64,000 bases of DNA from an uncultured Corynebacterium sp. (GTDB lineage Bacteria > Actinomycetota > Actinomycetes > Mycobacteriales > Mycobacteriaceae): NCBI RefSeq assembly GCF_947253065.1, contig NZ_CAMXWS010000003.1, forward strand, positions 19,954 to 83,953, given 5' to 3'. Position 1 is the first letter of the stretch. Every line of letters begins with the position of its first letter. The position numbers and the translations under genes were made by a program. The notes beneath the pieces are model-generated. The model had not been told where the DNA came from and searched no databases. It saw only the letters and a program-made list of their open reading frames with translations. Positions 4,107 to 60,560 of the stretch are shown here, in pieces.

Positions 4107-4463
4107 ATGTCAGAAACCGTGACCTCGACCGCGCGCGTGCGCCTGGGCAGCCCAGCACGTTACGGCAAGCTGTTGGCTCATCACTTTGAGCAGCTTATCG
4201 ACGCCACATGGGACCCCGAGACTGCCAAAGGGTCTTTCACTTTTTCCGCCGAGGACTCGCAGAATGAGTCATGTGATTCGGCGACATGCGATGTGATCGC
4301 CACTGAGGGCGTGCTCATGCTGAGCGTTGAAGGTCCAGAGCCCGCCGTGGAAAACGCGGAACGTCAGATGGCCTCACAGTTGATTCATCTAGCTCAAGAT
4401 GAAGACGTGGTTGTCGAATTCGCCCGTGGTGATAAGGGCTTGGTGCGGTTTACCAGCGCTTAA
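4107..4463 (+). CDS. hypothetical protein
   Basis: 118-aa ORF. Contains one copy of the 11-mer repeat, in frame as LID. Confidence 0.4.
   Translation: MSETVTSTARVRLGSPARYGKLLAHHFEQLIDATWDPETAKGSFTFSAEDSQNESCDSATCDVIATEGVLMLSVEGPEPAVENAERQMASQLIHLAQDEDVVVEFARGDKGLVRFTSA
4193..4203 (+). repeat. 11-mer GCTTATCGACG copy
   Basis: Exact match. In frame as Q-L-I-D-A in the hypothetical gene at 4107..4463. Confidence 0.9.
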
Positions 4464-5089
4464 ATTGCAGCAGGGGTGAGTTCTACCTCATCTGCCCATG
4501 TCAGGTCGATGCCCTGCGCGCGGAGCCATTCCATCGCATCATCATCGTGGCGAGTAATGCCTTCAACAGCATTGAGCGTTGCATCAATCGCGCGCTCGGC
4601 TTCTTCAGCCGTGATGAAACCAGCTGAGGTGGCTGCAGCCAGTTCGTCGATATCGAGAACATCGACTGCCTCTCCCCGAACGGCCACGAGGTCGACGTAC
4701 AAGTCGCGTGTGCGCCAGACTTCGCCCTCGACATCGATATCAGCGATATCAAAGTAGTAGTCCTGCTCCACCTCGACGCCTTCGCGGAAGTGGAAGATAT
4801 TGGCACGCAGATTCAGCTTGGGCAGCAGCCAGCTTTCCAGGTAGCCGAATTTCGGGTGATTCGCGCCGCGTGCCATGTAAAGGCCGAAGTCTGTGACCCG
4901 GAAGGTATCCACATCACGCAGGTACCCCTTCGGGTCGGTGTTGATCTTTGATGTCGTGTCAAAGGTTTCCTGCTTGACTGGGTGAAGGTCAGGCGCGAAT
5001 TCGCTGTTGGCTTTATAGGCGCTGTTGCCGCTGCCTACCGTGGCTGCTGTCATGTCCTTCACCTGCCGTTCGTCTTTATGCGCATTCAT
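4460..5089 (-). CDS. DUF402-family protein
   Basis: C-terminal acidic beta-rich region resembles DUF402. The assignment is tentative. Confidence 0.45.
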   Translation of the reverse strand: MNAHKDERQVKDMTAATVGSGNSAYKANSEFAPDLHPVKQETFDTTSKINTDPKGYLRDVDTFRVTDFGLYMARGANHPKFGYLESWLLPKLNLRANIFHFREGVEVEQDYYFDIADIDVEGEVWRTRDLYVDLVAVRGEAVDVLDIDELAAATSAGFITAEEAERAIDATLNAVEGITRHDDDAMEWLRAQGIDLTWADEVELTPAAI

Positions 5090-5097
5090 GGGCTTAT

Positions 5098-5796
5098 CTA
5101 CTTCACCGTCACGCTCAGTGCCGTCGGGGCGAAACCGCAGCTGCGGCCGCCGGTATTGACAGCTCCAGAGACAACCGCCAATACCGTGCCGGAGCCCGTA
5201 TTGGCCACGTTGGAGAGCGTTGCCGGTCCTGTTGGGTTTATCCCTTTGTTATGAAGCGGCGTTACACCACTGCGAAGATTGGACAGGTTGATCCAGTGGA
5301 CACGCATCGCTCCTTGCTGGGCGGATGCAGGTTTTGTACCCAAAGCTGTGAATACAAAAGTGGTCTGTCCAGCCTTCGGTGCTGGCACTGGAATGCGGGC
5401 AGGACCGGGCACGGCAAGGAAAGATCCGGTGGAGTGCATGCCTGCGCCCATGCAGTTGGGAGAGACTGTCGGCCAGAATCCTTGGCGGAAAGCTGGGCCG
5501 TTTTGGGGGAGTCCCGGGCCACCTGGCTCGCCGGTTCCAGCGGCGAAGGCCAGGCCGTTTAGCAGGGCATCGCGCACCGGAGCGGGCACGCCGGGATGAT
5601 TGGCGAAGTCCTTGACGGCGCGTTGCACCTGCGGGGTTGGGCGGCCGAGCGGGTCCACGACCTGAGAGGGTAGGGAGGACAGTGAAGATGGGGTCGGCGC
5701 TGCCTGTGCAGGGGAGATGGCACTGGGTCCGAGAATCGTGCCAGCGGTGAGGGCGACAGACAAAGCAAGCGTGCGTGCAGCGGTTGCTATCTTCAA
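5098..5796 (-). CDS. secreted hypothetical protein
   Basis: N-terminal signal peptide MKIATAARTLALSVALTAG... followed by a Pro-rich region. Confidence 0.5.
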   Translation of the reverse strand: MKIATAARTLALSVALTAGTILGPSAISPAQAAPTPSSLSSLPSQVVDPLGRPTPQVQRAVKDFANHPGVPAPVRDALLNGLAFAAGTGEPGGPGLPQNGPAFRQGFWPTVSPNCMGAGMHSTGSFLAVPGPARIPVPAPKAGQTTFVFTALGTKPASAQQGAMRVHWINLSNLRSGVTPLHNKGINPTGPATLSNVANTGSGTVLAVVSGAVNTGGRSCGFAPTALSVTVK

Positions 5797-6031: not shown

Positions 6032-7948
6032 GTGTCGCACCCTGAGTTCCGTAACGTCGCCATCGTCGCCCACGTCGACCATGGCAAGACCACTCTCGTC
6101 AACGGCATGCTGGAGCAGTCCGGCGCGTTCGGCGATCACGGCGAGGTTGCAGACCGCGTCATGGATTCCGGTGATCTCGAATCCGAACGTGGCATCACGA
6201 TTTTGGCGAAGAACACGTCCATTCGTCGTAAAGGCCTCGGCAAAGATGGCCGCGACCTGGTGATCAACGTCATTGACACCCCGGGCCACGCGGACTTCGG
6301 CGGAGAGGTCGAGCGCGGCCTTTCCATGGTCGACGGCGTTGTCCTGCTTATCGACGCCTCCGAAGGCCCCCTTCCGCAGACCCGCTTCGTGCTGGGCAAG
6401 GCGCTCGAGGCGAAGAAGCCTGTGATCATCTGCGTGAACAAGACCGACCGTCCGGACGCGCGTATCGACGAAGTCGTAGAAGAAGCCCAGGACCTGCTCC
6501 TCGAGCTCGGCGCCGGCCTTGAGGATCCGGAAGCTGCCGAAGCGGCTGAGAACCTGCTTGAGCTGCCGGTGCTCTACGCCTCCGGTCGTGCTGGCCGCGC
6601 TTCGTTCAACAACCCTGGCAACGGCGAGCTGCCGGACAACGATGATCTTCAGCCGCTCTTCGACGTCATCTACGACGTCCTCCCAGAGCCGTCCGCAGAT
6701 ATCGACGCACCTTTCCAGGCCCAGGTCACCAACTTGGACTCCTCTTCCTTCCTCGGTCGTATCGCGCTTGTTCGTGTGCACCGCGGCTCGGTAAAGAAGG
6801 GCGACCAGGTCGCTTGGGTGCACTACGACGCGGAAGGCGAGCAGCACGTCAAGAACGTCAAGATCGCTGAGCTGCTGGTCACCGAGGGGCTCGAGCGCGT
6901 TCCGGCGCAGGGCGAAGTCGTAGCAGGCGATATCGCTGCTGTCTCCGGTATCGACGAGATCATGATCGGTGACACCCTTTGTGATCCGGAGAATGTCGAG
7001 CCGCGCCCGCGCATCAAGATTGATGACCCGGCGATCTCCATGACCATCGGTGTGAACACCTCTCCGATGGCTGGTCGTGGTGGTGGCGACAAGCTCACTG
7101 CCCGCATGGTCAAGGCGCGTCTGGATCAGGAGCTGATCGGTAATGTCTCCATCAAGGTGCTGCCGACCGAACGTCCGGATGCTTGGGAGGTTCAGGGCCG
7201 TGGCGAGATGGCGCTGACCGTCCTGATTGAAACGATGCGTCGTGAAGGCTTTGAGCTGACCGTGGGCAAGCCGCAGGTTGTTACTAAGGAGATCGACGGC
7301 AAGATCCACGAGCCGTACGACCACATGGTCATTGACACTCCGTCTGAGTACCAGGGCGCTGTCACCCAGCTGATGGCCAGCCGCAAGGGGCAGATGACCG
7401 CGATGGGCAATGCAGGCTCCGGCGACTGGGTGCGCATGGAATTTGATGTTCCGTCCCGTGGCCTCATCGGCTTCCGCACGACCTTCCTTACTGAGACTCA
7501 TGGTGCTGGTATTGCTAACTCGTACTCCATCGAGCACCGCCCGTGGGCGGGTGAGATCAAGGGTCGTCCGACGGGCTCGCTTGTCGCTGACCGTTCCGGC
7601 CAGGTCACCTCGTACGCGCTGATGCAGCTCGCTGACCGCGGCAACTTCTTCGTGGAACCCGGCGCTGAGACCTACGAGGGCATGGTCGTTGGTGCGAATA
7701 ACCGTGATGAGGACATGGACGTCAACATCACTAAGGAGAAGAAGCTGACCAATATGCGTGCTGCTTCGGCGGACACTACGGTCACCTTGGCGAAGGCGAA
7801 GTCTCTGTCACTCGATGAGGCCATCGAATTCTGTGATGACGACGAATGCGTTGAGGTCACCCCGGACGTCATGCGCGTGCGCAAGGTCATCCTGAATGCC
7901 ACCGAGCGTGGTCGTGCTCGTTCCCGCGCTAAGCAGATGAACAAGTAG
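6032..7948 (+). CDS. typA: translational GTPase TypA/BipA
   Basis: GTG start preceded by AAAGGAG. G1 motif AHVDHGKTT, DTPGHADF, NKTD. Full-length (638 aa) EF-G-like architecture. Confidence 0.95.
   Translation: MSHPEFRNVAIVAHVDHGKTTLVNGMLEQSGAFGDHGEVADRVMDSGDLESERGITILAKNTSIRRKGLGKDGRDLVINVIDTPGHADFGGEVERGLSMVDGVVLLIDASEGPLPQTRFVLGKALEAKKPVIICVNKTDRPDARIDEVVEEAQDLLLELGAGLEDPEAAEAAENLLELPVLYASGRAGRASFNNPGNGELPDNDDLQPLFDVIYDVLPEPSADIDAPFQAQVTNLDSSSFLGRIALVRVHRGSVKKGDQVAWVHYDAEGEQHVKNVKIAELLVTEGLERVPAQGEVVAGDIAAVSGIDEIMIGDTLCDPENVEPRPRIKIDDPAISMTIGVNTSPMAGRGGGDKLTARMVKARLDQELIGNVSIKVLPTERPDAWEVQGRGEMALTVLIETMRREGFELTVGKPQVVTKEIDGKIHEPYDHMVIDTPSEYQGAVTQLMASRKGQMTAMGNAGSGDWVRMEFDVPSRGLIGFRTTFLTETHGAGIANSYSIEHRPWAGEIKGRPTGSLVADRSGQVTSYALMQLADRGNFFVEPGAETYEGMVVGANNRDEDMDVNITKEKKLTNMRAASADTTVTLAKAKSLSLDEAIEFCDDDECVEVTPDVMRVRKVILNATERGRARSRAKQMNK
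6346..6356 (+). repeat. 11-mer GCTTATCGACG copy
   Basis: Exact match. L-L-I-D-A in typA. Confidence 0.9.
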
Positions 7949-7985: not shown

Positions 7986-9698
7986 TTGACCCTCATGCGC
8001 ACCCCCAGTTGCAGAACTACTACGGCGAGGATTCTCGCCCCGGTTCTTGCTCTGGGGGTGCTGTCGTCTTTGGTGTCGTGTTCCGCGCAACCTGGCCCGC
8101 CGCCAATCGTTGAGGAAGAAGAACAGGAAACAACGGAGACGACCAGCACGACGGAGCAGCCCGCGACACGCTCTCAAGCGAATGTGGGCATCCAGCCACT
8201 GCGCAATGGTCTCAACCCGCACCTTGTGGCTGATGAGAATTCCACGGTGCGTGATGTTGCTGAGTTGACGCTGCCGAGCGCATTTCACGCCGGCAAGCTC
8301 AATACCGACTTGTTGGAATCAGCCGAGGTGCTCGATGCTGAAGACAACGAGGTGCCAGACGCGCCTGCAATGACAGTGCGGTATGTGATCAACCCTGCTG
8401 CGCAGTGGTCAGACGGCAGCCCGATCACGGGCGCGGATTTCGTGTACCTGTGGCGCGGAATCACCTCCACGCCCGGCGCAGTCGCCCCGGCTGGGTACCG
8501 CGCGATTCGGGATGTGCAGGTCACCGGCGGTGGCGGCAAGACCGTGGATGTGCTTTTCGACGAACAGGTGGATACCTGGCCCGACCTTTTCAATTACCTC
8601 CTGCCTTCGCATTTGCTCGACTCGCGTGCAGAGGACTTTGCCACGGCGTTGCGTGACACGATCCCAGCGTCGGCAGGCCGCTACATGGTGGACAATGTCG
8701 ACCGTGGCGCAGGCACGATCGACCTGAACCGAAATGACAGGTTCTGGGGGGCGAACCCGGCAGGCATTGATCTGCTCACGCTCAATTTCGTGCGGTCCAC
8801 GGATCTGACAGCTGATCGGTTGCGCTCAGGGCAGCTCGCTTTCGTCGATCATGTACCGGGGGAGACCTCGTGGGATACATATTCGCTAATCCCAGATGCG
8901 CAGGTCCGGCTCGAGGAAGGTCCGCGTGAGCTCGGCCTCACCTTGTCGGTTGATTCGCCGATTCTTCAGTCGCGCGATGTGCGTACGGAACTCGCATCGC
9001 TAATCGACGTCCCACTCATCGCCCGCATCGCCGCCGGTCGCACCCGCGATCTGGCAGAGGCAGAACCCACCCGTCAGGTCGAGCGTGAGCCTGATGCTCT
9101 GCGCGCTGCAGCAGGGAAGTCCCGTCCATTGCGGATTGCTGCTGATCCCCGCGATGATCAAGCTATGCCAGCAGCTCGAGCACTGGTCGATGTTCTCGTA
9201 CGCGCCGGGGTGTCAGCAGAAGCGGTCGCAGCGGATGCCACCGAGACTGCACAGCGCCTGCGCGCCGGCACTGTCGATGCAACGGTCGCATGGTCGCTCG
9301 ACGGTGGTCCCGGGGTGTGGGCTAGCAAGGTGCAGTGCCCACCAGCGGACGTTGAATACGTCTCGGGGAATTTGAGTGGGTTGTGTTTGGCGTCGACACG
9401 CATGCTTTCCGGCGACATCCTGTCCGGAGAGATTCCTGCAGACCGCGCCAGCGATGTCGTTTCTGACACCTTGCGACGCGAAGCTGTCTGGGTGCCTTTA
9501 TTGTCCGAGCGTCGCATCATGGTCTTAGGCAATGGCATAGAAGGACCCGCCGCACAGCTCGATGAGTGGGGCAGTGGGGTGGCAGGAGCAGCCCAGTGGA
9601 AGCTAGCGGAACCAGTCAATACGGAAGGTGAATCCATAGATGAACGCAGCGAGCCCGATCCCGAACCTGATTCCGATGCCGAGCTCCGAGCCGGCTAA
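7986..9698 (+). CDS. ABC transporter substrate-binding lipoprotein, family 5 (peptide/nickel type)
   Basis: Lipobox LVSCS after a signal peptide. WSDGSPITGADF motif typical of SBP_bac_5. Confidence 0.65.
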   Translation: MTLMRTPSCRTTTARILAPVLALGVLSSLVSCSAQPGPPPIVEEEEQETTETTSTTEQPATRSQANVGIQPLRNGLNPHLVADENSTVRDVAELTLPSAFHAGKLNTDLLESAEVLDAEDNEVPDAPAMTVRYVINPAAQWSDGSPITGADFVYLWRGITSTPGAVAPAGYRAIRDVQVTGGGGKTVDVLFDEQVDTWPDLFNYLLPSHLLDSRAEDFATALRDTIPASAGRYMVDNVDRGAGTIDLNRNDRFWGANPAGIDLLTLNFVRSTDLTADRLRSGQLAFVDHVPGETSWDTYSLIPDAQVRLEEGPRELGLTLSVDSPILQSRDVRTELASLIDVPLIARIAAGRTRDLAEAEPTRQVEREPDALRAAAGKSRPLRIAADPRDDQAMPAARALVDVLVRAGVSAEAVAADATETAQRLRAGTVDATVAWSLDGGPGVWASKVQCPPADVEYVSGNLSGLCLASTRMLSGDILSGEIPADRASDVVSDTLRREAVWVPLLSERRIMVLGNGIEGPAAQLDEWGSGVAGAAQWKLAEPVNTEGESIDERSEPDPEPDSDAELRAG

Positions 9699-10581
9699 GC
9701 GCGCAGTGAAAGGCCCGCGTGATCTCGTTGGTCTGCGCGTCGTAGCAGTGCACGCGCACCCGGATGACGAGTCCATTTCCACCGGCGGTGCTCTCGCACA
9801 CCTCGCGCGACGTGGCGCCGACGTCCTCGTTGTCACCTGCACACTTGGCGAGGAAGGCGAAGTGATCGGGGAGACCTACCAAGGCCTCGTCAACGATGCC
9901 GCTGACCAACTCGGTGGCTTCCGCATCCATGAGCTCTCCCGTGCATTGGAGATCCTCGGCGTCCGCGGCGCATTCCTTGGCGGTGCTGGCCGTTACCGGG
10001 ACTCCGGCATGGCGGGATCACCTGCAAGCCGCAACCCTCGCGCCTTCGTCAACTCCGGCCAGCAAGCCGTCAACGACCTCGTAGACATCTTCGAACGCGA
10101 AGCACCACACCTCGTGCTCACCTATGACGAAAACGGTGGTTACGGCCACCCTGACCACATTCGTGCTCACGAAATCACGCACCTCGCAGCACAACAGGTC
10201 GAGATCCCACGCATCCTCTGGGCAGCGCGCCTGCGTGAAGAACTCGAGGCCAATTTCGCGGAAGACATCCCCGAAGGATGGACCCGCCCCGCGCCGGGCG
10301 AGCTCGACGCTGTCGACACCACCGACACGTGGGTTGAGATGGATGATGTTGTCTACGCTGCCAAAGCCGAAGCCATGAAAGCTCACGCCACGCAGATTTG
10401 GCTTGCCGACGCCTCCGTCACCCTCACCAACCCCCACGCCGCCATCGCTCGCGGCCCAGTGACCACCTATGCATTGTCCAACCTGATCGCCCAACCGATC
10501 ATTCGTCGCGAGCACTACCTACTTGGCGCTGGCATGCCTCTTGAGCACGGCGCAGATATCACCAGCGGCCTGGACTTCTAA
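9640..10581 (+). CDS. mshB: N-acetyl-1-D-myo-inositol-2-amino-2-deoxy-alpha-D-glucopyranoside deacetylase (LmbE family)
   Basis: AHPDDE zinc-binding motif and HPDH motif. The start is uncertain: Met13 at 9676 is an alternative. The ORF overlaps the upstream ORF. Confidence 0.8.
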   Translation: MNAASPIPNLIPMPSSEPAKRAVKGPRDLVGLRVVAVHAHPDDESISTGGALAHLARRGADVLVVTCTLGEEGEVIGETYQGLVNDAADQLGGFRIHELSRALEILGVRGAFLGGAGRYRDSGMAGSPASRNPRAFVNSGQQAVNDLVDIFEREAPHLVLTYDENGGYGHPDHIRAHEITHLAAQQVEIPRILWAARLREELEANFAEDIPEGWTRPAPGELDAVDTTDTWVEMDDVVYAAKAEAMKAHATQIWLADASVTLTNPHAAIARGPVTTYALSNLIAQPIIRREHYLLGAGMPLEHGADITSGLDF

Positions 10582-11322: not shown

Positions 11323-12426
11323 ATGGGGTCTCGCCGCTCGCTCAGTCAGGTACTGCCGGATTTTCCATGGGACACCATCGCCGACGTCAAGGCGAAGGCA
11401 GCATCCCACCCAGATGGGCTGGTGGACCTGTCCGTCGGCGGGCCGGTCGATGATGTGCCGCCTGCGATCCAGCTCGCGCTCGCGGAGAATTCCGCCGAGC
11501 CCGGCTACCCGCAGACGATGGGCACGCCTGCCTTGCGCGCCGCGATCGTCTCGGCGTTGGAGCGCCGCTTCGGCATCGCCGGACTGAACGAGCGCGCTGT
11601 GTTGCCGACCATCGGGCTCAAAGAAGCCATCGCGTGGCTGCCGACGTTGCTGGGTCTGCGTGGCCAGACCGTCGTCATCCCGGAAGTCGCGTACCCCACC
11701 TACGAGGTCAGCGCACTCATGGCTGGCTGCGATGTCGTGCGTTGCGACGACCCGGCGCAAGCCCCCCGCGATGCCGCCCTGATTTTCCTCAACTCCCCGT
11801 CGAACCCGACTGGCGCTGTGGCCTCCGTTGAGCTGCTGCGCTCCTGGGTCGCCTTCGCGCGCGAAACTGGCGCGATCATCGCCTCCGACGAGTGCTACCT
11901 CTACCTCGGGTGGGCCACTGAACCTGTCTCTGTGCTGCACCCGTCCGTCACCGACGGTGATAACACCGGCCTTCTGGCGCTGCACTCCCTGTCTAAGACC
12001 TCGAATCTGGCGTCCTACCGCTGCGGCATGATCTCCGGCGACGAAGCTCTCGTCCAAGAACTCCTCGAGGTGCGCAAGCACGCTGGCTTGATCGTTCCCG
12101 GCCCGATCCAGCACGCCATGGTCGCGGCATTGGAGAGCGACCTGCACGAGGAAATGCAACGCTCGGACTACGCCATGCGCCGCCTCGAGCTGCTCAAGGC
12201 CCTGCCTGAAGCAGGCTTCACCGTCGATGACTCTGACGCTGGCCTGTACCTCTGGGTTCGCCGCGACGGCATGGATTCACGCGCGATCCTTAACTGGTTC
12301 GCCGAGCGCGGCATCCTCGGTGCACCCGGCGATTTCTACGGCCCGGCAGGCGCATCTCACGTCCGCATCGCACTGACTGCGACGGATGAGAATATCGCTA
12401 AGGCCGCACGCCGCATCGTCGAATAG
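11323..12426 (+). CDS. dapC: N-succinyldiaminopimelate aminotransferase (class I PLP aminotransferase)
   Basis: Aminotransferase class I fold with an SKTSN PLP-lysine region. Conserved fdxA-dapC synteny of Corynebacterium and Mycobacterium. Confidence 0.8.
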   Translation: MGSRRSLSQVLPDFPWDTIADVKAKAASHPDGLVDLSVGGPVDDVPPAIQLALAENSAEPGYPQTMGTPALRAAIVSALERRFGIAGLNERAVLPTIGLKEAIAWLPTLLGLRGQTVVIPEVAYPTYEVSALMAGCDVVRCDDPAQAPRDAALIFLNSPSNPTGAVASVELLRSWVAFARETGAIIASDECYLYLGWATEPVSVLHPSVTDGDNTGLLALHSLSKTSNLASYRCGMISGDEALVQELLEVRKHAGLIVPGPIQHAMVAALESDLHEEMQRSDYAMRRLELLKALPEAGFTVDDSDAGLYLWVRRDGMDSRAILNWFAERGILGAPGDFYGPAGASHVRIALTATDENIAKAARRIVE

Positions 12427-12503: not shown

Positions 12504-13112
12504 GTGACCCAACACGATATAGCTGAAGACGCGGCGTCCGATGTCGCCCGCTCGGCGCCACCTGCGCAGCAAAAGAGAGGCAGCACCGCCTTGCGCGTGA
12601 TGAACGGTGCCCGCGAATTCATCAAATTCGGCATCGTCGGCGGTTCCGGAGTGCTGGTCAACCTCGCGGTTGTCTACCTCGTGACGAAGGCACTCGAGCT
12701 CGGCTGGAACATCCACGAAAATGAAGTCTTCTTCAACCTGTTCGGCACTCGCTGGAATGTCCGCTGGTACCACGTGATCATGACCATCGCGTTCATCACC
12801 GCGAACACGTGGAATTACCAGCTCAATCGGTCGTGGACCTTCCGCAACGTGCCGAAGCGGTCGTGGCTGCGCGGGTACTTCCCGTTCCTCGCCACGGGCA
12901 TTGTCGCGTTCGTTGTCAGCCAGATCGTCGCGACGTTGCTGATGAATCCGACGACGCCCGTCGCGCTTCCCGACGACATCTTCGACGACTCCACCGGACT
13001 TCGCACCAAGTTCTACTGGGCAGCTGGCATATCGACGCTGGTGGCCATGCCCGTCAACTTCATCATCAACAAGCTTTGGACGTTCAGTCGCCCGAAAAAG
13101 CCGCGGTCCTAG
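12504..13112 (+). CDS. GtrA-family membrane protein
   Basis: FIKFGIVGGSGVLVNL N-terminal motif and four transmembrane helices of GtrA-like proteins. Confidence 0.65.
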   Translation: MTQHDIAEDAASDVARSAPPAQQKRGSTALRVMNGAREFIKFGIVGGSGVLVNLAVVYLVTKALELGWNIHENEVFFNLFGTRWNVRWYHVIMTIAFITANTWNYQLNRSWTFRNVPKRSWLRGYFPFLATGIVAFVVSQIVATLLMNPTTPVALPDDIFDDSTGLRTKFYWAAGISTLVAMPVNFIINKLWTFSRPKKPRS

Positions 13113-31440: not shown

Positions 31441-31451
31441 GAAGGGGAGGG

Positions 31452-38948: not shown

Positions 38949-38989
38949 ATCGCCCCTTCACTTCCTTCATTTTGCCCGTAAGAGTCCTG

Positions 38990-47847: not shown

Positions 47848-47856
47848 TGCAATTTT

Positions 47857-54169: not shown

Positions 54170-54823
54170 TTACTCTACGGAAAACACTGGAATTGTCCCA
54201 TCTGGGGAGTGCCCGCTGATCAAACCACGAATGCCCGAACATTGTCGACGCATCGCGCGCACATCAGGTTTGGGCAGCGCAAGCCCATATTTTCTGGCCA
54301 CCTCTCCGATTCTTTGGGCATAGGCGCAGCGTGCCGACGCATCCATTGGCACCCACTCGCTGGGCAAGGCATCTGATTTGGATTGGTTAGCGGCCCGTGA
54401 GGTAACCACAAGGTTCAACGGATCGTTGGCAAAAGCGAGACGCTTCTTATCCGGCCAGCGGAATGCCCCGATATCCCAGGCGGCGCGGAGGGGAATGACA
54501 TGGTCGATTTCAACATCGTCGGGTTGAAGGAGCTCGCCGGTGTATGGGTCAGTGAAAGGCGTGACCGTGTTCATGTCCCACTGGCGGTAGGGCACAGCGC
54601 AGGAGTCGACCTGCCATGCGTCTGCCATGACGGCCTCACGCGTCGTGCAGCCGCTGCGGTGGGTGGCCCAACCAGCGCCGAAGACACTGCGTTCGTATCC
54701 GAGGACGGTGTGGCGGGGGTGGGGGCTTGAGGGGACGTCGATAAGCGAATGCGGAGTGGGGAACGGGACGACCGCGATGGTGGCGATGATGAGGGCGCAG
54801 AGATACGCGCGGAATGGTGTCAT
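54170..54823 (-). CDS. secreted DUF1524/HNH-like nuclease-domain protein
   Basis: N-terminal signal/TM segment. DHVIPLRAAW...NDPLNLVVTSRAANQSKSD resembles the DUF1524 His-Me finger nuclease domain. Confidence 0.5.
   Translation of the reverse strand: MTPFRAYLCALIIATIAVVPFPTPHSLIDVPSSPHPRHTVLGYERSVFGAGWATHRSGCTTREAVMADAWQVDSCAVPYRQWDMNTVTPFTDPYTGELLQPDDVEIDHVIPLRAAWDIGAFRWPDKKRLAFANDPLNLVVTSRAANQSKSDALPSEWVPMDASARCAYAQRIGEVARKYGLALPKPDVRAMRRQCSGIRGLISGHSPDGTIPVFSVE
54736..54746 (-). repeat. 11-mer copy (reverse orientation)
   Basis: The coding strand of the DUF1524 gene reads S-L-I-D-V. Confidence 0.9.
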
Positions 54824-56654: not shown

Positions 56655-59600
56655 ATGCCTAAATTCCTTCTGCACGGCCTGTGGCTGCCCGCCTCAGGTC
56701 TCAACCTGTGGGTTGAGCGTGTAGATGGGCACAAGATTTTGATGCCTTCGCAGGTTCCTGCGGGCACGTTCCCGCCGATGGTGGAGAACATGCTGCAGGA
56801 TTCGCAGTTCCGTCGCCGCGGGGCGATCACGCTGCAGACTCCGAAGGGCAAGCAGGTGCAGTTGCGTGCTCCGACGGCAGCATTTTCGCCGGAGGAAACG
56901 GTGGCTTTTTTGAGCCAGGTTTCGCTTCTCGACGATGCGTCGCCCGCCGCCACCACCGCTCAACGCCAGTCGATCGCACCGGATCTGTACTGGATCATTC
57001 GCCTCTATGTGGGCCTGACTCGGTTTGTGCGTGCGGGCAGGGTGAGCATTCGTGTGCGTCCATCCGATGGTGCCTGGTACCCGGAGTGGCAATTGGGCAC
57101 GGGCCTGGAAGAGCGTGGCTGGTTGGCATCGATGATTGCGGCCGCGCCGGGAGTGATTACGGCGAATAACGTGAACCTGGGCGAGGATGTGGCCACGACA
57201 TTGGTGCACTGGATTGCTAGTGCACACCTGTCGCATTTGAAGGACCAGACGCGGGCATACCCGTGGCATGATTTTTCGGACGCACTGCTGAATTCTCAGC
57301 CTTTGCGCCGTGGCGGTTCGAGTGTGTCGAAGCAGATCGCGCATTGGAATGGCTCGATCACTGCAGTGAATGTGCAGTTGGTCTTCATCGTCGAGGAGCC
57401 AACGGATCCGGTGCAGCAGGCGCACGAGAATGATTCAGCCGGTGCGATGCTCAGTGAGCTCGCCGATATCACTGCCACCAGTACTGGCACGGATACGAAT
57501 GCCTCGATGGATCCGGCGAAGGTGCAGTGGCCGGTGCGTGCCCAGGTGCGTGCGGGTACGGATGCGCCGCGGCCGATTCATCTTGATGAGGTCGATGTGG
57601 CCACGTTGTCCAGTTTGCGTGATCAGCTGCGCCGCGCGGTTGAGGTCACTGGCTTGGTGGATCCGGAGAAGCATCCGCGCATGCCTTTTACCCCGATGAC
57701 GGACAGGGACGGGGATTGGGATGCGTACTTGAGCACGGATGAGCTGATGGAGCTCGTGGCCAAGGATGCGACGCGGCTGCAGATGAAGGGCATCACAGTG
57801 ATGCTGCCGCGCTCCTGGCAGCGCATGGAGACTACGGCGAAGCTCAAGGTCAGCGCCAATGATGATGACGGTGCTGATGCCGCGACGACGCGTCGTTTCG
57901 GCGTGGATCAGCTGATTTCTTATGACTGGTCACTCTCTGTCGGGGATACGGAGCTAACGGCAGAAGAAATGCGCCAGCTGGTCAATTCCAAGTCAGGGCT
58001 GATCCAGCTGCGTGGCCAGTGGGTGATGGCGGATTCGCAGTCTCTGGCGAGGTCACGCAAATACATCGAGTCCTTGTCGGAGAAGGAAGTCGAAGAGGGC
58101 GTCATCACTGCCGAGGAGCTGCGCCAGCTGGCGTTGGAGTCTGCGGCGGAGGCTGAAGGCGGCGCGCTGGAGATCGCCGGTGATGTGGATTCACCGGCGT
58201 GGATGGACACTTTGATTGGCGGGACCGACCGCCCGGCCCCGGACCGTCAGCCGATTCCGGATACGGTGACTGCGGAGCTGCGTGATTATCAGCGCCGTGG
58301 TGTGGATTGGCTGTATTTCATGTCGCGGAACCAGCTCGGTGCGGTGCTCGCCGATGACATGGGGCTGGGCAAGACGTTGCAGCTGCTCACGCTTCTGGCC
58401 ATCGAGGCGGAGAATAAGGAGAAGACGGGTCCCACGTTGGTTGTCGCACCGACTTCTGTGGTGGGCAACTGGGCACGCGAGGCGCAGCGCTTCGTGCCCA
58501 ACATGCGGGTTGGTGTTCACCATGGGCAAGGGCGTCTCAAAGGCGATGCGCTGGTCGAGGAGATCGGGCAGTTGGATCTGCTGATCACCTCCTACGGCGT
58601 GGTCACCCGGGATTACAAGCAATTGGGGCTCATTGAATGGGACCATGTGGTGCTTGATGAGGCGCAGGCAATCAAGAATGCGTCGACGCGGGCGTCGCAA
58701 AGCGTGCGTGCAATTGATGCGCGCCACCGCATCGCGCTGACGGGTACTCCTGTGGAGAATCGTCTGGCGGAGCTGCGCAGCCTCCTTGATTTCGTGAACC
58801 CCGGCATTTTGGGGACGCAGAGCTTCTTCCGCAATCACTTCGCCAAAATCATTGAGACGCGACGTGATGAGCAGCTGGCTGATGAGATGCAGGATCGCCT
58901 CCAGCGTCTTACCGCGCCATTTGTGTTGCGCAGGTTGAAGACGGATCCGACGATTATTTCGGACCTGCCGGAGAAAAGCGAGCAAGTGGTCACCGTAGAT
59001 ATGACGGATGAGCAGGCCGCGCTGTACACCGCGCTCGTGGAATCGATGAAAAAGGAGCTGGAGAAGCGCACAGGTATGTCGCGCAAGGGGCTCGTGCTTT
59101 CCACGATCACGCGCATCAAACAGATCTGTAACCACCCCGCGCACTTCCTCGGCGATGGGTCTGCGGTGACCATCAAGGGCAAGCACCGCTCCGGCAAGGT
59201 GGCAAAGCTTTTGCAGCTTATCGACGAAGCCGTGGCCACCGACCAGCGCGTCCTCGTTTTCACTCAGTACAAGGCTTTCGGCGATATTCTCCAGCCGTAT
59301 TTGAGCGACCGGCTGGGCCAGGACATTCCGTTCCTGCATGGCGGAGTGTCCAAAACTGCGCGTGATGCGATGGTGGATGAATTCCAAAATCCGAATGGTC
59401 CGCGCGCCATGATTCTGTCGCTGCGTGCCGGCGGCACGGGCCTGAACCTGACTGCGGCATCGATGGTGATCCACATGGATCGGTGGTGGAACCCCGCGGT
59501 GGAGAACCAGGCCACTGACCGTGCGTACCGCATCGGGCAGGCCAAGAATGTTCAGGTGTACAAGATGATCACCCGCGGGACGATGGAGGAGTCCATCCAA

Positions 59601-59720
59601 GACATTCTGGACGGCAAGCTCCAGCTCGCCGGCGCAGTGGTCGGTGAAGGCGAAGGCTGGATCACCGAGCTGGACACCGATGATCTGACCACGCTGATGA
59701 GCTACCGGACGAGCGAGTAG
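56655..59720 (+). CDS. helZ: SNF2-family helicase (HelZ-like)
   Basis: Start taken at MPKFLLHGLW. SNF2 N-terminal ATPase motifs (LADDMGLGKTLQ, DEAQ) and a helicase C domain. Confidence 0.85.
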   Translation: MPKFLLHGLWLPASGLNLWVERVDGHKILMPSQVPAGTFPPMVENMLQDSQFRRRGAITLQTPKGKQVQLRAPTAAFSPEETVAFLSQVSLLDDASPAATTAQRQSIAPDLYWIIRLYVGLTRFVRAGRVSIRVRPSDGAWYPEWQLGTGLEERGWLASMIAAAPGVITANNVNLGEDVATTLVHWIASAHLSHLKDQTRAYPWHDFSDALLNSQPLRRGGSSVSKQIAHWNGSITAVNVQLVFIVEEPTDPVQQAHENDSAGAMLSELADITATSTGTDTNASMDPAKVQWPVRAQVRAGTDAPRPIHLDEVDVATLSSLRDQLRRAVEVTGLVDPEKHPRMPFTPMTDRDGDWDAYLSTDELMELVAKDATRLQMKGITVMLPRSWQRMETTAKLKVSANDDDGADAATTRRFGVDQLISYDWSLSVGDTELTAEEMRQLVNSKSGLIQLRGQWVMADSQSLARSRKYIESLSEKEVEEGVITAEELRQLALESAAEAEGGALEIAGDVDSPAWMDTLIGGTDRPAPDRQPIPDTVTAELRDYQRRGVDWLYFMSRNQLGAVLADDMGLGKTLQLLTLLAIEAENKEKTGPTLVVAPTSVVGNWAREAQRFVPNMRVGVHHGQGRLKGDALVEEIGQLDLLITSYGVVTRDYKQLGLIEWDHVVLDEAQAIKNASTRASQSVRAIDARHRIALTGTPVENRLAELRSLLDFVNPGILGTQSFFRNHFAKIIETRRDEQLADEMQDRLQRLTAPFVLRRLKTDPTIISDLPEKSEQVVTVDMTDEQAALYTALVESMKKELEKRTGMSRKGLVLSTITRIKQICNHPAHFLGDGSAVTIKGKHRSGKVAKLLQLIDEAVATDQRVLVFTQYKAFGDILQPYLSDRLGQDIPFLHGGVSKTARDAMVDEFQNPNGPRAMILSLRAGGTGLNLTAASMVIHMDRWWNPAVENQATDRAYRIGQAKNVQVYKMITRGTMEESIQDILDGKLQLAGAVVGEGEGWITELDTDDLTTLMSYRTSE
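59216..59226 (+). repeat. 11-mer GCTTATCGACG copy
   Basis: Exact match. Q-L-I-D-E in helZ. Confidence 0.9.
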
Positions 59721-59735
59721 GAGGGAGGAGCACGC

Positions 59736-60560
59736 ATGCCACGGCCCCAATTAGACAATGTCACCTGGGTGAATTTCGGTTCGCGCGAGAAGGTGAACAG
59801 CGCTGCGGAGACCACCACGCCGAATGATGCGTCGGAGGAGACTCGCTCGCAGATTCTGCGCTACAACGAAGCCGCCCGGACGATCTACCGCGCGGCCCAG
59901 CAGGGCGCGGACCAAGGCCGGTTCTCCCGTGGCCGAAAATACGCGGAGCAAGGCAATGTGCTTGAGCTCCGCGCAGAAGCCGGTCGCTTCACTGCCACGA
60001 TCGCCGGTTCACAGAACGAACCATTCACCACGCTGATCATCCTCCCGTACCGCGATTCCGGTGCGATCCGCGATGCGCTCGGCATCATGTCGCACAATGC
60101 GAATGCGCTGGCTGAAGTCCGCAACGGCTACATTGGCCGAGAGCTGCTCGATTGTCTGCTGGCCACCGAGGACGAGAAGATCCGCTTCCGCTGCGATTGC
60201 CCGGATGAGACCCGCGTGTGCAAGCACGGGGTCGCAGCCGCACTCAAAGCAGCAGAGCTTATCGACGCCGACCCCACCCTCCTCTTCCGCCTCCGCAACC
60301 TCGACCTGAACACGCTAGAGCGCCAACTCCGTGAATCCGCCGGGGAGCGGGCCATGGAATCTGCCAGGGAAGGCTCTGAATTCTTCTGGGACGGCCACAT
60401 CCTCCCGCACCTGCCCGAGCCGAAGATCGCCCCGATGATTGAGGACTCAGATCTGGACCTTTTGCACAAGGCGATGCAGACCATCTCCTTTACCAATATC
60501 GACCAGCTACGTGCCGTGTCCGATCTGGAAGACCTCTACGACGAACTGACCCGTAGATAA
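59736..60560 (+). CDS. SWIM zinc-finger protein
   Basis: CDCPDETRVCKHGVAAAL matches the CxCxnCxH SWIM finger. Positional partner of HelZ, as for Rv2101/Rv2102. Confidence 0.7.
   Translation: MPRPQLDNVTWVNFGSREKVNSAAETTTPNDASEETRSQILRYNEAARTIYRAAQQGADQGRFSRGRKYAEQGNVLELRAEAGRFTATIAGSQNEPFTTLIILPYRDSGAIRDALGIMSHNANALAEVRNGYIGRELLDCLLATEDEKIRFRCDCPDETRVCKHGVAAALKAAELIDADPTLLFRLRNLDLNTLERQLRESAGERAMESAREGSEFFWDGHILPHLPEPKIAPMIEDSDLDLLHKAMQTISFTNIDQLRAVSDLEDLYDELTRR
60257..60267 (+). repeat. 11-mer GCTTATCGACG copy
   Basis: Exact match. E-L-I-D-A in the SWIM gene. Confidence 0.9.

What the first reader, a model, noticed from the sequence alone, without database searches (positions are those of the whole stretch)
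4193..60267. The motif is accommodated by codon choice: 11 copies encode Leu-Ile-Asp as CTT-ATC-GAC, others force rare codons
Eleven genic copies sit in frame as G-CTT-ATC-GAC-G, encoding Leu-Ile-Asp followed by A, D, E or V. About 19 LID tripeptides occur in the window's proteins, and 11 of them use exactly this codon triplet, although CTT is not expected to be the favoured Leu codon at ~62% GC. The remaining LIDs use CTC, CTG, CTA, CTG-ATT or TTG-ATT. Three copies are read in the opposite orientation as Val-Asp-Lys (GTC GAT AAG C). One is read as Ser-Ile-Ser with the rare ATA codon (10683-10693). One is read as Ala-Tyr-Arg-Arg with the rare CGA codon (36345-36355). The same DNA word is thus maintained in at least four different reading contexts, sometimes at a translational cost. 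This argues for selection, or engineering, on the nucleotide word itself.
Basis: seen in the sequence. Interest (0 to 1): 0.7.

Follow-up and report, generated by a model that had tools for sequence, protein, structure and literature searches.

The report
Uptake-signal-like DNA word in Corynebacterium
A short DNA word followed by a C-rich stretch is written about once per kilobase into the genes of this Corynebacterium and many relatives, bending codon and even amino-acid choice; it looks like the "self" DNA tags known only from Haemophilus and Neisseria, in a group where nothing of the kind has been described.

Summary
GCTTATCGACG occurs 17 times (0.04 expected). Eleven copies encode Leu-Ile-Asp as CTT-ATC-GAC, out of 17 LID tripeptides (0.9 expected).

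This 11-mer is only the commonest form of a bipartite core, GCKT-NN-CGACG:
- 61 copies in 64 kb, about 1 per kb (3.2 expected), on both strands (33/28).
- Each core is followed on its 3' side by a ~30-nt C-rich, G-poor tract, in sense, antisense and non-coding copies alike.
- Synonymous-codon shuffles give 1.75 sense and 2.76 antisense copies of GCTTNNCGACG; 32 and 13 are seen.

The window is a natural Corynebacterium chromosome. About 30 related species carry the element at 0.4-1.35 per kb, some lineages have lost it, and one uses a dialect (GCTTNNCGATG). At orthologous sites, core and tract come and go together. There is no replication-strand bias and no sign of engineering.

Best reading (unproven, confidence about 0.35): a clade-specific self-DNA signal like the Pasteurellaceae USS or Neisseria DUS, accumulating through biased recombination. 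Rivals are a Chi-like nuclease regulator and a Rho-loading (rut-like) module. I found no paper that mentions the word.

The parts
246..288 (+). core GCGTGACGACG + 3' flank; sense R-D-D; weak tract (C .35, G .29)
1710..1752 (+). core GCTTGTCGACG + tract; antisense to the DUF4185 gene
2737..2779 (-). core GCTTCACGACG + tract; no confident ORF
3962..4004 (-). core GCTTGACGACG + tract; sense L-D-D
4193..4235 (+). canonical core GCTTATCGACG + flank; sense L-I-D in the DUF2218 gene; weak tract
6346..6388 (+). canonical core + C-tract; sense L-I-D in bipA/typA
6460..6502 (+). core GCGTATCGACG; sense R-I-D in bipA/typA; weak tract
8552..8594 (+). core GCTTTTCGACG; sense L-F-D; weak tract
9359..9401 (-). 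core GCGTGTCGACG + tract (G .10); antisense
10401..10443 (+). core GCTTGCCGACG + strong tract (C .65, G .10); sense L-A-D
11739..11781 (+). core GCGTTGCGACG + tract; sense R-C-D
12965..13007 (+). core GCTTCCCGACG + tract; sense L-P-D
13351..13393 (-). core GCTTGGCGACG + tract; sense L-G-D
14334..14376 (-). core GCTTTTCGACG + tract; sense L-F-D
15411..15453 (+). core GCTTCCCGACG + tract; antisense
16510..16552 (-). core GCTTGTCGACG + strong tract (C .65); antisense V-D-K in the M20 peptidase gene
17385..17427 (+). core GCTTCCCGACG + tract; sense L-P-D
17499..17541 (+). core GCTTTACGACG + tract; sense L-Y-D
19214..19256 (+). core GCGTATCGACG; sense R-I-D; weak tract
19766..19808 (-). canonical core + tract (C .58, G .10); antisense V-D-K in the GT2 gene
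20023..20065 (+). canonical core + tract (C .61, G .10); sense L-I-D in the GT2 gene
21023..21065 (+). core GCTTGACGACG + tract; sense L-D-D
21829..21871 (-). core GCTTTCCGACG + tract; sense L-S-D in the GH32 gene
22699..22741 (-). core GCTTAGCGACG; sense L-S-D in GH32; no clear tract
22720..22762 (-). core GCGTATCGACG, 21 nt from the previous core; sense R-I-D; no tract
23491..23533 (+). canonical core + tract; antisense V-D-K
23726..23768 (-). core GCGTATCGACG + tract; sense R-I-D
24973..25015 (+). canonical core + tract; sense L-I-D in the glgC-like gene
25787..25829 (-). core GCTTCTCGACG + tract; sense L-L-D
26219..26261 (-). canonical core + tract; sense L-I-D in a methyltransferase gene
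27029..27071 (+). canonical core + tract (C .61, G .13); sense L-I-D in the zf-HC2 gene
27549..27591 (+). core GCTTTTCGACG + tract; sense L-F-D
28734..28776 (-). core GCGTATCGACG + tract; sense R-I-D
28794..28836 (-). core GCGTGTCGACG; sense R-V-D; weak tract
29706..29748 (-). core GCTTGCCGACG + strong tract (C .58, G .03); antisense V-G-K
31434..31476 (-). canonical core in the last 8 codons of odhA (A-L-I-D-E-A-F-A-stop); the tract lies in the 3' UTR and forms the 5' arm of a hairpin followed by a T-run
31981..32023 (+). core GCTTGACGACG; antisense in odhA; no tract
32076..32118 (+). core GCGTGCCGACG; antisense in odhA
33473..33515 (+). core GCTTGCCGACG; antisense V-G-K in odhA; no tract
34098..34140 (-). 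core GCTTAACGACG; sense L-N-D in odhA (GCTTATCGACG in 16 relatives); no tract
34565..34607 (+). core GCGTGACGACG; antisense in odhA
35468..35510 (-). core GCTTCTCGACG + tract; sense L-L-D in the fused ABC transporter
35851..35893 (+). core GCTTGACGACG + tract; antisense V-V-K in the ABC transporter
36313..36355 (-). canonical core + tract; sense strand but other frame, A-Y-R-R with CGA, in the ABC transporter
37259..37301 (-). canonical core + strongest tract (C .68, G .03); sense L-I-D in the ABC transporter
38938..38980 (+). canonical core + tract; at or upstream of the ABC transporter start, antisense to it
40746..40788 (+). core GCTTCTCGACG + tract; sense L-L-D
41127..41169 (-). core GCGTACCGACG + tract; antisense
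42644..42686 (-). core GCTTGTCGACG + tract; sense L-V-D
43453..43495 (-). canonical core + tract (C .65); antisense V-D-K in the MFS transporter; site shared with many relatives
45410..45452 (+). core GCTTTTCGACG + tract; sense L-F-D in the nucleoside hydrolase gene; last copy before the 5.3-kb motif-free island
50709..50751 (-). core GCTTGCCGACG + tract (G .06); antisense in the DeaD helicase gene
51606..51648 (+). core GCTTCGCGACG + tract; sense L-R-D in DeaD
52446..52488 (+). core GCGTGACGACG; sense R-D-D in the DeaD tail; no tract (possibly a chance match)
54329..54371 (+). core GCGTGCCGACG; antisense; weak tract
54704..54746 (-). canonical core + strong tract (C .68, G .10); sense L-I-D in the GmrSD/HNH-like gene
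56924..56966 (+). core GCTTCTCGACG + tract; sense L-L-D in the SNF2 helicase gene
58661..58703 (-). core GCTTTGCGACG; antisense in the SNF2 gene
59216..59258 (+). canonical core; sense L-I-D in the SNF2 gene; weak tract
60257..60299 (+). canonical core + tract (C .61, G .10); sense L-I-D

Best explanation
SHOWN. The genome carries, about once per kb and in both orientations, an oriented composite DNA element. It has a sharply defined 11-bp core, GCKT-NN-CGACG (GCTTATCGACG is the favoured form in this lineage), followed about 10-30 nt downstream on the same strand by a C-rich, G-poor tract that often holds a C4-5 run. The element is written into unrelated housekeeping genes by choice of synonymous codons and, where needed, of amino acids. 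It is shared by a large part of the genus Corynebacterium, has been lost in some lineages, and has single-base dialects. Core and tract are gained and lost together.

INFERRED. I propose it is a 'self-DNA' recognition signal of the same kind as the uptake signal sequences of Pasteurellaceae (USS) and Neisseriaceae (DUS). A clade-specific, fast-evolving protein would read the core on duplex DNA. The one-sided tract would help a following strand-specific step, such as strand separation, or entry or protection of one strand. DNA fragments carrying good copies would be taken up and/or recombined preferentially, so copies spread and are kept by biased gene conversion (molecular drive), tempered by purifying selection on the proteins. 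That would explain thousands of weakly useful sites kept at a cost to coding. It would also explain the graded constraint: invariant core, free NN, statistical tract.

Whether the biased step is uptake across the mycolate envelope or survival and recombination of linear DNA inside the cell is not resolved.
For: - Abundance and sharpness. 61 cores against 3.19 +/- 1.84 expected. With the other eight specified bases fixed, each position is near-invariant (for example G11 47/47, C2 47/48), except T/G at position 3. One-off cores are near background.
- Pressure on the DNA, not the peptide. Codon shuffles give 1.75 sense and 2.76 antisense copies against 32 and 13 seen. CTT is used in 30 of 34 in-context Leu codons against 12% elsewhere.
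- Both orientations, no replichore bias. 33+/28- in the window; 253 leading against 267 lagging over 36 loci. Neighbour orientation is random, and spacing is slightly more even than random (CV 0.80 against 0.98).
- One-sided flank. C-G skew at +12..+42 is 0.27 against 0.04 upstream (p = 2e-9, 56 of 61 elements). It is present in sense and antisense copies alike. It falls with core integrity: 0.306, 0.076, 0.006, -0.001 for 0 to 3 mismatches. At orthologous sites it is 0.12-0.15 higher where the core is intact, with no difference in control flanks.
- Clade distribution and dialects. 0.4-1.35 per kb in about 30 species, about 0 in C. phocae, L033, L037 and L162, and GCTTNNCGATG x12 in L039, also with a tract.
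- Turnover with protein change at orthologous sites. CGC-CGC-CAG becomes CGT-CGT-CAA, and LLEEAFA becomes LIDEAFA. LID is 3-fold over-represented.
- Orthologous cores are identical in 31% of species pairs. My own rough estimate of the neutral expectation is about 1-2% (inference from codon frequencies, not a tool result).
- A 5.3-kb low-GC restriction-modification island carries no copy.

From established knowledge, all of these are textbook properties of USS/DUS: a core plus a one-sided flank, about 1 per kb, both strands, preferred reading frames, a proteome footprint, dialects, and accumulation by drive.
Against: - No natural transformation is known in Corynebacterium. I found no paper reporting competence or an uptake sequence there, and I could not test for competence genes or a receptor.
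- Known USS/DUS are enriched in intergenic terminators, often as inverted pairs. Here only 2 of 61 copies lie outside ORFs (ORFs cover about 90% of the window; P = 0.05), and no inverted pairs were seen.
- Copies are 2.2 times more often sense than antisense (340:153). The excess over shuffles is 18-fold against 5-fold. A purely orientation-blind DNA signal does not predict this, unless coding cost differs between orientations.
- A strand-specific C>G tract with C-runs is not what the AT-rich USS flank looks like. It resembles an RNA rut site or a RecA-preferred G-rich strand just as well.
- The viral-contig scan gave no information on whether phages avoid or mimic the element.
Confidence: 0.35

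Rival explanations
1. Chi-like regulator of a DNA-end-processing helicase-nuclease (AdnAB or RecBCD). Read on the complementary strand, the element is 5'-(G-rich tract)-N-CGTCGNNAMGC-3'. An enzyme entering from the 3' side would meet the core, stop degrading that strand, and leave a 3' tail that ends in a G-rich stretch favourable for RecA loading. Foreign DNA without the word would be degraded.
For: - The word is strongly over-represented, codon-compatible and mostly in genes, at about 1 per kb.
- It varies between species, as Chi does.
- It has a strand-asymmetric flank. From established knowledge, Chi in E. coli sits in GT-rich islands preferred by RecA.
- No Chi is known for actinobacterial AdnAB (established knowledge), so the role is vacant.
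- Protection of incoming linear DNA would also create a drive.
Against: - There is no co-orientation with replication: 253 against 267 and 33/28 in the window. Every characterised Chi is skewed.
- Nine specified bases plus a tract is much longer than the 5-8 nt of known Chi sites.
- All loci sampled come from one chromosomal neighbourhood, so the skew test, although clear, is local.
Confidence: 0.15
2. RNA-level module for transcription surveillance. The C-rich, G-poor tract would act as a Rho-loading (rut-like) or RNase-entry site. The core would be bound by a clade-specific RNA-binding adaptor. Sense copies would act as latent terminators when translation fails, and antisense copies would silence antisense transcripts.
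For: - A tract of about 30 nt with C about 0.5 and G about 0.15-0.2, C4-5 runs at variable distance and no G-runs is what rut sites look like (established knowledge).
- Copies are almost all inside ORFs, are biased 2.2:1 to the sense strand, and are spaced fairly evenly.
- The tract is not a quadruplex or i-motif former.
Against: - From established knowledge, Rho and RNA polymerase are conserved and have no 11-nt specificity. Dialects and lineage losses therefore require an unknown accessory factor.
- The T/G alternative at position 3 cannot be read by base pairing, so a guide RNA is unlikely.
- Copies are not concentrated at gene ends. The one copy at a gene end (odhA) is followed by an ordinary hairpin plus T-run.
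- Keeping thousands of such sites by site-by-site selection, at a cost to protein sequence, is hard to justify.
- No Rfam family matches.
Confidence: 0.15
3. By-product of a sequence-directed repair or conversion bias. In E. coli, very-short-patch repair inflates CCWGG, and a similar cause is suspected for HIP1 in cyanobacteria. Here, an enzyme that nicks or corrects near-cognate sites towards the core would play that role, and patch synthesis would leave a compositional footprint downstream.
For: - There is a sharp step between perfect cores and one-off cores.
- A directional tract of about 30-40 nt starts next to the core, which is the size of a short repair patch.
- The tract decays together with the core.
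- The element depends on lineage.
Against: - From established knowledge, no known repair enzyme has 9-base specificity.
- A G-to-C swap without any change in A or T is not a known mutational signature.
- First codon positions change too, so amino acids are altered, which argues that the pressure is strong and sustained.
- Spacing more even than random is not expected.
Confidence: 0.1
4. Binding sites for an abundant chromosome-organising protein (nucleoid-associated or a condensin/translocase guide).
For: - The sites are dense, fairly evenly spaced and clade-specific, with a sharply defined duplex-readable core. T and G at position 3 share a major-groove keto group, which is my inference.
Against: - From established knowledge, known guides (KOPS, SRS, AIMS) are strand-skewed; this element is not.
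- From established knowledge, nucleoid proteins do not show 9-base specificity.
- Nothing explains the strand-specific tract or the cost accepted in proteins.
Confidence: 0.07
5. Ordinary codon-pair or translational bias, or deliberate engineering.
For: - 40 of 61 copies share one sense frame.
Against: - Antisense copies are also enriched 5- to 15-fold over shuffles.
- Copies exist in another frame and outside ORFs.
- The tract follows the core, not the gene.
- The word is shared by about 30 wild species and has dialects.
Confidence: 0.01

Closest known systems
Uptake signal sequence (USS) of Pasteurellaceae (Hin-type AAGTGCGGT, Apl-type ACAAGCGGT)
   Same: - A short asymmetric core plus a one-sided, compositionally biased flank of about 20-30 bp.
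- About 1 per kb, on both strands equally, with spacing more even than random.
- Most copies lie inside genes in a few preferred reading frames, with a measurable footprint on codon and tripeptide usage.
- There are family-level variants.
- Positions are partly conserved between species.
   Different: - The flank here is C-rich and G-poor on one strand, not AT-rich.
- Copies are not enriched in intergenic terminators and not paired as inverted repeats.
- There is a 2.2:1 sense bias.
- The host is an actinobacterium with a mycolate envelope and no known competence.
- Uptake has not been tested.
DNA uptake sequence (DUS) of Neisseriaceae and its dialects
   Same: - A 10-12-nt word at about 1 per kb.
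- Single-base 'dialects' between lineages (here CGACG, CGATG, AGACG).
- Sparse in recently acquired DNA.
- In Neisseria the word is read by a dedicated, evolving receptor (ComP).
   Different: - DUS has no long flank and is concentrated in terminators.
- No ComP-like receptor or type IV pilus link is known here.
Chi sites (RecBCD/AddAB) and their GT-rich islands
   Same: - An over-represented, codon-compatible, species-specific word, mostly in genes.
- Strand-asymmetric neighbouring composition that could favour RecA.
- Marks self DNA.
   Different: - Chi is 5-8 nt and co-oriented with replication; this element shows no skew (253/267).
- The enzyme link is untested.
Rho utilisation (rut) sites
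   Same: The tract is C-rich, G-poor and unstructured, with C-runs, and is about 30 nt long.
   Different: - rut sites have no conserved core, are not clade-specific words, and act only in the RNA sense orientation.
- Here the tract is tied to an 11-bp core in both orientations.
HIP1 (GCGATCGC) of cyanobacteria
   Same: A hyper-abundant word written into coding regions, lineage-specific, of unexplained origin, possibly spread by drive.
   Different: HIP1 is an 8-bp palindrome without a flank or orientation.

Membership tests
Uptake signal sequences (USS/DUS) | Genome-wide hyper-abundance (about 1 per kb) of one asymmetric word | tested here: met
   61 copies in 64 kb against 3.19 expected. Density is 0.4-1.35 per kb in about 30 related species, against about 0.04 per kb in 1.07 Mb of unrelated viral DNA.
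Uptake signal sequences (USS/DUS) | Both orientations equally, no replichore bias | tested here: met
   33+/28- in the window. Over all loci, 253 copies on the leading strand against 267 on the lagging strand, strands assigned by GC skew. All loci come from one chromosomal neighbourhood only.
Uptake signal sequences (USS/DUS) | Lineage-specific variants (dialects) and absence outside the clade | tested here: met
   GCTTNNCGATG x12 in L039. GCTTNNAGACG is a secondary form in L027 and L030. No enrichment in C. phocae (L020), L033, L037 or L162.
Uptake signal sequences (USS/DUS) | Accommodation in preferred reading frames, with a proteome footprint | tested here: met
   40 of 61 copies share the frame xxG|CTT/CGT|NNC|GAC|Gxx. 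LID occurs 17 times against 5.6 expected. Amino acids change at orthologous sites.
Uptake signal sequences (USS/DUS) | Enrichment in intergenic regions or terminators, often as inverted pairs | tested here: not met
   Only 2 of 61 copies lie outside ORFs. Neighbour orientations are random, and no inverted pairs were seen. One copy (odhA end) abuts a terminator.
Uptake signal sequences (USS/DUS) | Preferential uptake or transformation by DNA carrying the word; competence machinery and receptor present | not testable with these tools
   This needs experiments or whole genomes. The literature search found no report of competence in Corynebacterium.
Chi sites | Co-orientation with replication (strand skew) | tested here: not met
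   253 against 267 copies.
Chi sites | Attenuates RecBCD/AddAB/AdnAB nuclease in one orientation | not testable with these tools
   This needs a biochemical assay.
KOPS/SRS/AIMS (translocase guides) | Strong strand skew that switches at dif | tested here: not met
   There is no skew in the region sampled.
rut (Rho loading) sites | C-rich, G-poor, unstructured RNA segment | tested here: met
   The tract has C 0.46-0.57 and G 0.13-0.21. CCCC occurs in 49-82% of tracts and GGGG in 0%.
rut (Rho loading) sites | Acts in the RNA sense orientation; Rho-dependent 3' ends downstream | not testable with these tools
   Orientation is mixed (41 sense, 18 antisense). No transcript data are available.
Interspersed repeats (REP/MITE) | Copies share extended sequence, lie between genes, and are inserted relative to empty sites | tested here: not met
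   Nothing is conserved beyond the core and the tract composition. Copies lie in-frame inside aligned orthologous codons, without indels.
Codon-pair / translational bias | Enrichment confined to the translated frame | tested here: not met
   Antisense GCTTNNCGACG occurs 13 times against 2.76 expected. The canonical antisense form occurs 4 times against 0.26. Copies also exist outside ORFs, with a tract.

The most novel reading that the evidence does not exclude
This is the first uptake or self-recognition DNA signal outside the Proteobacteria. A dialect-forming, about 45-bp composite tag (11-bp core plus a strand-specific C-tract) would show that many skin, urogenital and environmental Corynebacterium species exchange chromosomal DNA by a sequence-selective route: natural transformation through the mycolate envelope, or a Chi-type gate on incoming DNA. 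The receptor would be unknown. Alternatively, the core plus rut-like tract is an entirely new, dedicated transcription-surveillance module.
Probability: 0.4. Interest if true: 0.9.

Novelty: new variant of a known kind. Interest (0 to 1): 0.8.

Why it matters
- **Gene exchange.** If the element is a self-DNA tag, it predicts an unrecognised, sequence-selective route of gene exchange in a genus that includes major members of the human microbiota and opportunistic, increasingly drug-resistant pathogens.
- **A handle for experiments.** It supplies a defined oligonucleotide bait for finding the receptor and for making these poorly tractable species transformable.
- **Evolutionary genetics.** It is a clean new case of a DNA-level pressure that overrides codon preference and changes proteins: CTT in 88% of in-context Leu codons, and LID three-fold in excess. 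Core and flank visibly co-evolve, and there are natural 'knock-out' lineages and a dialect lineage for comparison.
- **Practical uses.** The word is a strong taxonomic and k-mer marker, it can flag horizontally acquired islands, and it is a confounder for codon-usage and dN/dS analyses in these genomes.

Tried and rejected
1. Full-text search for the word and its reverse complement found only primers and vector sequences. Searches for an uptake sequence, competence, or Chi/AdnAB in Corynebacterium found nothing relevant. Two k-mer and motif surveys were read and do not mention it.
2. Engineering or a plant is rejected. The word is in about 30 wild genomes.
3. Codon-pair bias is rejected by the antisense enrichment and the flank.
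4. Chi/KOPS-type skew is absent.
5. Quadruplex or i-motif: only 2-12% of tracts have four runs of C>=3.
6. Terminator or gene-end association: there is no excess near stop codons apart from the odhA site, and that site has an ordinary hairpin plus T-run.
7. Known RNA families: Rfam finds no hit in the window.
8. Phage mimicry or avoidance: a viral-contig scan with core+N{5,25}+CCCC gave 120 single, chance-like hits. The few loci with several relaxed cores lack tracts, so the scan was uninformative.
9. An alternative abundant word in species lacking the motif (L020, L033, L032, L004, L026, L037, L162): none was found. The L033 'hit' is a 15-bp tandem repeat.
10. DnaA box (TTATCCACA against TTATCGACG): there are two mismatches at contact positions, and the A/T positions that matter for DnaA are the free NN here. 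Rejected from knowledge, not tested.
11. RNA polymerase elemental pause (G-10, Y-1, G+1 fits G1...C10 G11): rejected as the main cause. Core polymerase specificity cannot give dialects, lineage loss or antisense enrichment. This is inference.
12. Mycobacterial topoisomerase I site CGCTT: position -1 is not conserved.
13. One call failed on a region-size limit, and two protein look-ups found no record.

Full report
**What the window is**

The window is about 60% G+C. It encodes ordinary actinobacterial housekeeping genes:
- a fused E2o/E1o 2-oxoglutarate dehydrogenase (OdhA, 31452-35207, minus strand);
- a fused ABC transporter;
- BipA/TypA;
- an SNF2 helicase with DUF3670;
- a DeaD helicase, GlgC, GH32 and others.

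OdhA is 93-94% identical to that of Corynebacterium urinipleomorphum and C. sp. Marseille-P3884, and the neighbourhood is syntenic in 34 other Corynebacterium genomes. The sequence is a natural Corynebacterium chromosome segment.

**Check of the observation**

All 17 copies are followed by G. I assigned reading frames by codon-usage scoring of every ORF over each copy, and by Pfam:
- 11 copies are read Leu-Ile-Asp (G|CTT|ATC|GAC|G).
- 3 copies are antisense Val-Asp-Lys.
- 1 copy is Ala-Tyr-Arg-Arg using CGA, which is 5.3% of Arg codons.
- 1 copy sits at or upstream of the ABC transporter start.

I find 17 LID tripeptides, and 11 of them are CTT-ATC-GAC. Codon frequencies (CTT 12%, ATC 75%, GAC 60%) predict 0.9.

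In the context NNG-CTN-NNC-GAC-GNN, Leu is CTT in 30 of 34 cases and CTG in none. Elsewhere CTT is 165 of 1367.

Shuffling synonymous codons within each gene 500 times keeps protein sequence and codon usage. It gives 0.26 canonical copies in sense and 0.26 in antisense, against 12 and 4 observed.

**The word is part of something larger**

One- and two-mismatch neighbours are concentrated at three positions only. The real core is bipartite: GCKT-NN-CGACG.
- GCTTNNCGACG occurs 47 times and GCGTNNCGACG 14 times.
- Together that is 61 copies, about 0.95 per kb, against 3.19 +/- 1.84 expected (maximum 9 in 100 shuffles).
- With the other eight specified bases fixed, each position is almost invariant. 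For example, position 11 is G in 47 of 47, position 2 is C in 47 of 48, and position 10 is C in 47 of 49. Only position 3 admits G.
- Copies lie 33 on + and 28 on -.
- 40 of 61 share the sense frame xxG|CTT or CGT|NNC|GAC|Gxx (Leu/Arg-X-Asp). 18 are antisense, 1 is in another sense frame, and 2 lie outside confident ORFs.
- Codon shuffles give 1.75 sense and 2.76 antisense GCTTNNCGACG, against 32 and 13 observed.

The excess is therefore created by codon choice in both orientations. It is stronger in sense.

**A second module: a one-sided C-rich tract**

The 30 nt from +12 to +42 on the core's own strand are C-rich and G-poor.
- For the 17 canonical copies, C is 0.55-0.57 and G is 0.13-0.14. 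For the other 44 copies, C is about 0.46-0.47 and G is 0.17-0.21. Composition returns to background (about 0.3 each) beyond +50 and upstream.
- The C-G skew is 0.266 against 0.042 in the upstream control. 56 of 61 elements have C>G (Wilcoxon p = 2e-9).
- The tract follows the core, not the gene. It is present in sense and in antisense copies, both in the window (n = 41 and 18) and pooled over all species (n = 327 and 151).
- It peaks at +24 (C 0.78, G 0.08 in 506 pooled copies) and has a 3-nt period. That period fits codon position 3 in the favoured sense frame and codon position 1 (G-starting codons) in the favoured antisense frame.
- C4 runs occur in 82% of canonical and 49% of all window tracts, against 5-15% in control flanks. 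They start anywhere between +18 and +35. G4 runs are absent.
- Four-run quadruplex or i-motif patterns are rare, at 2-12%.
- The tract depends on an intact core. Within the window the skew is 0.306 for perfect GCTTNNCGACG, 0.076 for one mismatch, 0.006 for two and -0.001 for three.
- GCGT copies, and copies inside the highly constrained odhA, tend to have weak tracts or none.

**Relatives**

The core is enriched in almost all related species sampled, at 0.4-1.35 per kb in about 24-kb loci. Unrelated viral DNA holds about 0.04 per kb.

On an OdhA tree the motif-rich species form a large clade. Density is reduced in two sub-lineages. There is no enrichment in C. phocae or a related MAG, yet the most distant species sampled is enriched.

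Further species fetched through OdhA homologues gave these counts:

| Locus | Organism or record | Copies of the core |
|---|---|---|
| L036 | C. atrinae | 15 |
| L161 | CP126970 | 7 (0.48 expected) |
| L163 | ENA assembly | 8 (0.27 expected) |
| L037 | GCA_000688435 | no enrichment |
| L162 | CP046884, 46% G+C | no enrichment |

One species (L039, GCA_030229285.1) uses a dialect. GCTTNNCGATG, mostly GCTTGCCGATG, occurs 12 times, and the CGACG form once. The dialect also has a C-rich tract (C 0.46, G 0.21, against 0.35 and 0.31). The C. riegelii pair has a secondary form, GCTTNNAGACG.

The preferred NN differs by lineage. AT makes up 36-57% in the window's clade, while CT or GC lead elsewhere.

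**Evolution at orthologous sites**

A codon alignment of 35 odhA genes shows copies at both shared and unshared positions.
- There are coordinated synonymous changes: CGC-CGC-CAG becomes CGT-CGT-CAA in the window, L008 and L019.
- There are amino-acid changes: LLEEAFA becomes LIDEAFA.

Across all loci, the orthologue of a given copy has an identical core in 31% of species pairs. Codon frequencies would give roughly 1-2% once synonymous sites are saturated; that figure is my own estimate.

The tract co-varies with the core. Compared with orthologues whose core has 0, 1, 2 or at least 3 mismatches, the motif-bearing sequence has a C-G skew higher by -0.005, 0.057, 0.119 and 0.146. No difference appears in two control flanks. 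Core and tract are therefore gained and lost together.

**Distribution in the window**

- There is no replication-strand bias: 253 copies on the G-rich strand against 267 on the other, over all loci.
- Neighbour orientations are random.
- Spacing is slightly more even than random (CV 0.80 against 0.98, p about 0.04).
- 59 of 61 copies lie in ORFs, which cover about 90% of the window (P = 0.05).
- There is no pile-up at stop codons, except the conserved odhA C-terminal site. There the tract forms the 5' arm of a normal hairpin followed by a T-run.
- The only long gap (45421-50740) coincides with a low-GC island encoding an Eco29kI-like endonuclease and a C5 DNA methylase.

**What it most likely is**

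The shown facts are these:
- a sharp asymmetric core with a free central dinucleotide;
- a one-sided, graded flank;
- about 1 copy per kb, on both strands, without replichore skew;
- accommodation in preferred frames, with a proteome footprint;
- absence from an acquired island;
- conservation with turnover;
- lineage losses and single-base dialects.

From established knowledge, this is point for point the syndrome of the uptake signal sequences of Pasteurellaceae and Neisseriaceae. Such sequences can accumulate by molecular drive alone, because DNA with better copies is preferentially taken up and recombined. A drive also best explains how thousands of individually trivial sites, including a merely statistical flank, persist at a cost to proteins.

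I therefore favour a clade-specific self-DNA recognition signal, read by an unknown, fast-evolving protein. My confidence is about 0.35.

The misfits are real:
- Competence is unknown in Corynebacterium.
- Copies are not enriched between genes or in terminators.
- There is a 2.2:1 sense bias.
- The flank is strand-specific C>G, not AT-rich.

**Rivals**

- *Chi-like gate on AdnAB/RecBCD.* Read on the other strand, a G-rich tract lies just 5' of the core. That is where a preserved 3' tail would load RecA. This model would also generate a drive, but the absence of skew and the length of the element argue against it (0.15).
- *RNA-level Rho-loading or RNase-entry module.* This fits the rut-like tract, the ORF location and the sense bias. 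It needs an unknown sequence-specific adaptor to explain the core, the dialects and the losses (0.15).
- *Repair or conversion by-product* (0.1).
- *Architectural protein site* (0.07).
- *Codon-pair bias and engineering* are refuted.

**Novelty**

No paper in the searchable library contains the word or describes such an element in Corynebacterium, and Rfam has nothing. I rate it a new variant of a known kind: an uptake-signal-like genomic word, found here in a new phylum, with a new type of flank and unproven function. It deserves experimental follow-up.

Noticed in passing
window 45802-47847 (gap without cores 45421-50740): A low-GC island (0.55-0.58 against about 0.61) encodes an Eco29kI-like restriction endonuclease (weak Pfam hit, below cut-off) next to a C5 cytosine DNA methylase. 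It coincides with the only long stretch free of the motif. It is probably a recently acquired restriction-modification system.
   Followed up: partly
window 31395-31452 (minus strand, just after the odhA stop): The C-tract of the odhA C-terminal element (CCCTCCCCTTCCACCCCGCCCCGCC) pairs with GGCGGGGTG and is followed by TTTT. The tract therefore doubles as the 5' arm of an intrinsic terminator. In the closest relatives (L001, L019) the 3' UTR is equally C-rich; in others it is not.
   Followed up: partly
L039 13892-14255 and 20549-20786: An intergenic family of inverted repeats, CCTTCGCGCTCAC ... GTGAGCGCGAAGG (10 arms), looks REP- or MITE-like. Two copies of the dialect core GCTTGCCGATG sit inside these repeats.
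   Followed up: no
L027 and L030 (C. riegelii group): A secondary form, GCTTNNAGACG (6 and 5 copies), occurs beside GCTTNNCGACG (7 and 9). It may be a second dialect or a relaxed position 7.
   Followed up: no
window-wide; odhA C-terminus in 35 species: The element leaves a protein-level footprint. The LID tripeptide occurs 17 times against 5.6 expected. The OdhA C-terminus alternates between LLEEAFA/LLDEAFA and LIDEAFA according to whether the core is present.
   Followed up: partly
window 22731-22762 (minus strand, GH32 gene): Two cores (GCTTAGCGACG and GCGTATCGACG) lie in direct orientation only 21 nt apart. Neither has a clear C-tract.
   Followed up: no
window, all 14 GCGT-type cores: Cores with G at position 3 have much weaker tracts than GCTT cores. 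The one-mismatch class as a whole has skew 0.076 against 0.306. Some of them may be near-cognate or chance sites rather than full members.
   Followed up: partly
L033 1374-1473: A 15-bp tandem repeat (CACAGCTCCACACGG and variants, at least 6 units) accounts for the only abundant word in that motif-poor MAG.
   Followed up: yes
window 54170-54823 and 56547-60560: A small GmrSD_C/HNH-like nuclease gene and an SNF2 helicase with DUF3670, followed by an unannotated 274-aa ORF, lie together. The same trio is syntenic in L162. It may be a defence or repair module, and each gene carries cores.
   Followed up: no
L024 (record titled 'uncultured Campylobacter sp.' MAG): This contig carries a Corynebacterium-type odhA neighbourhood (78% identity) and 20 cores. 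The MAG label is almost certainly a binning error.
   Followed up: no
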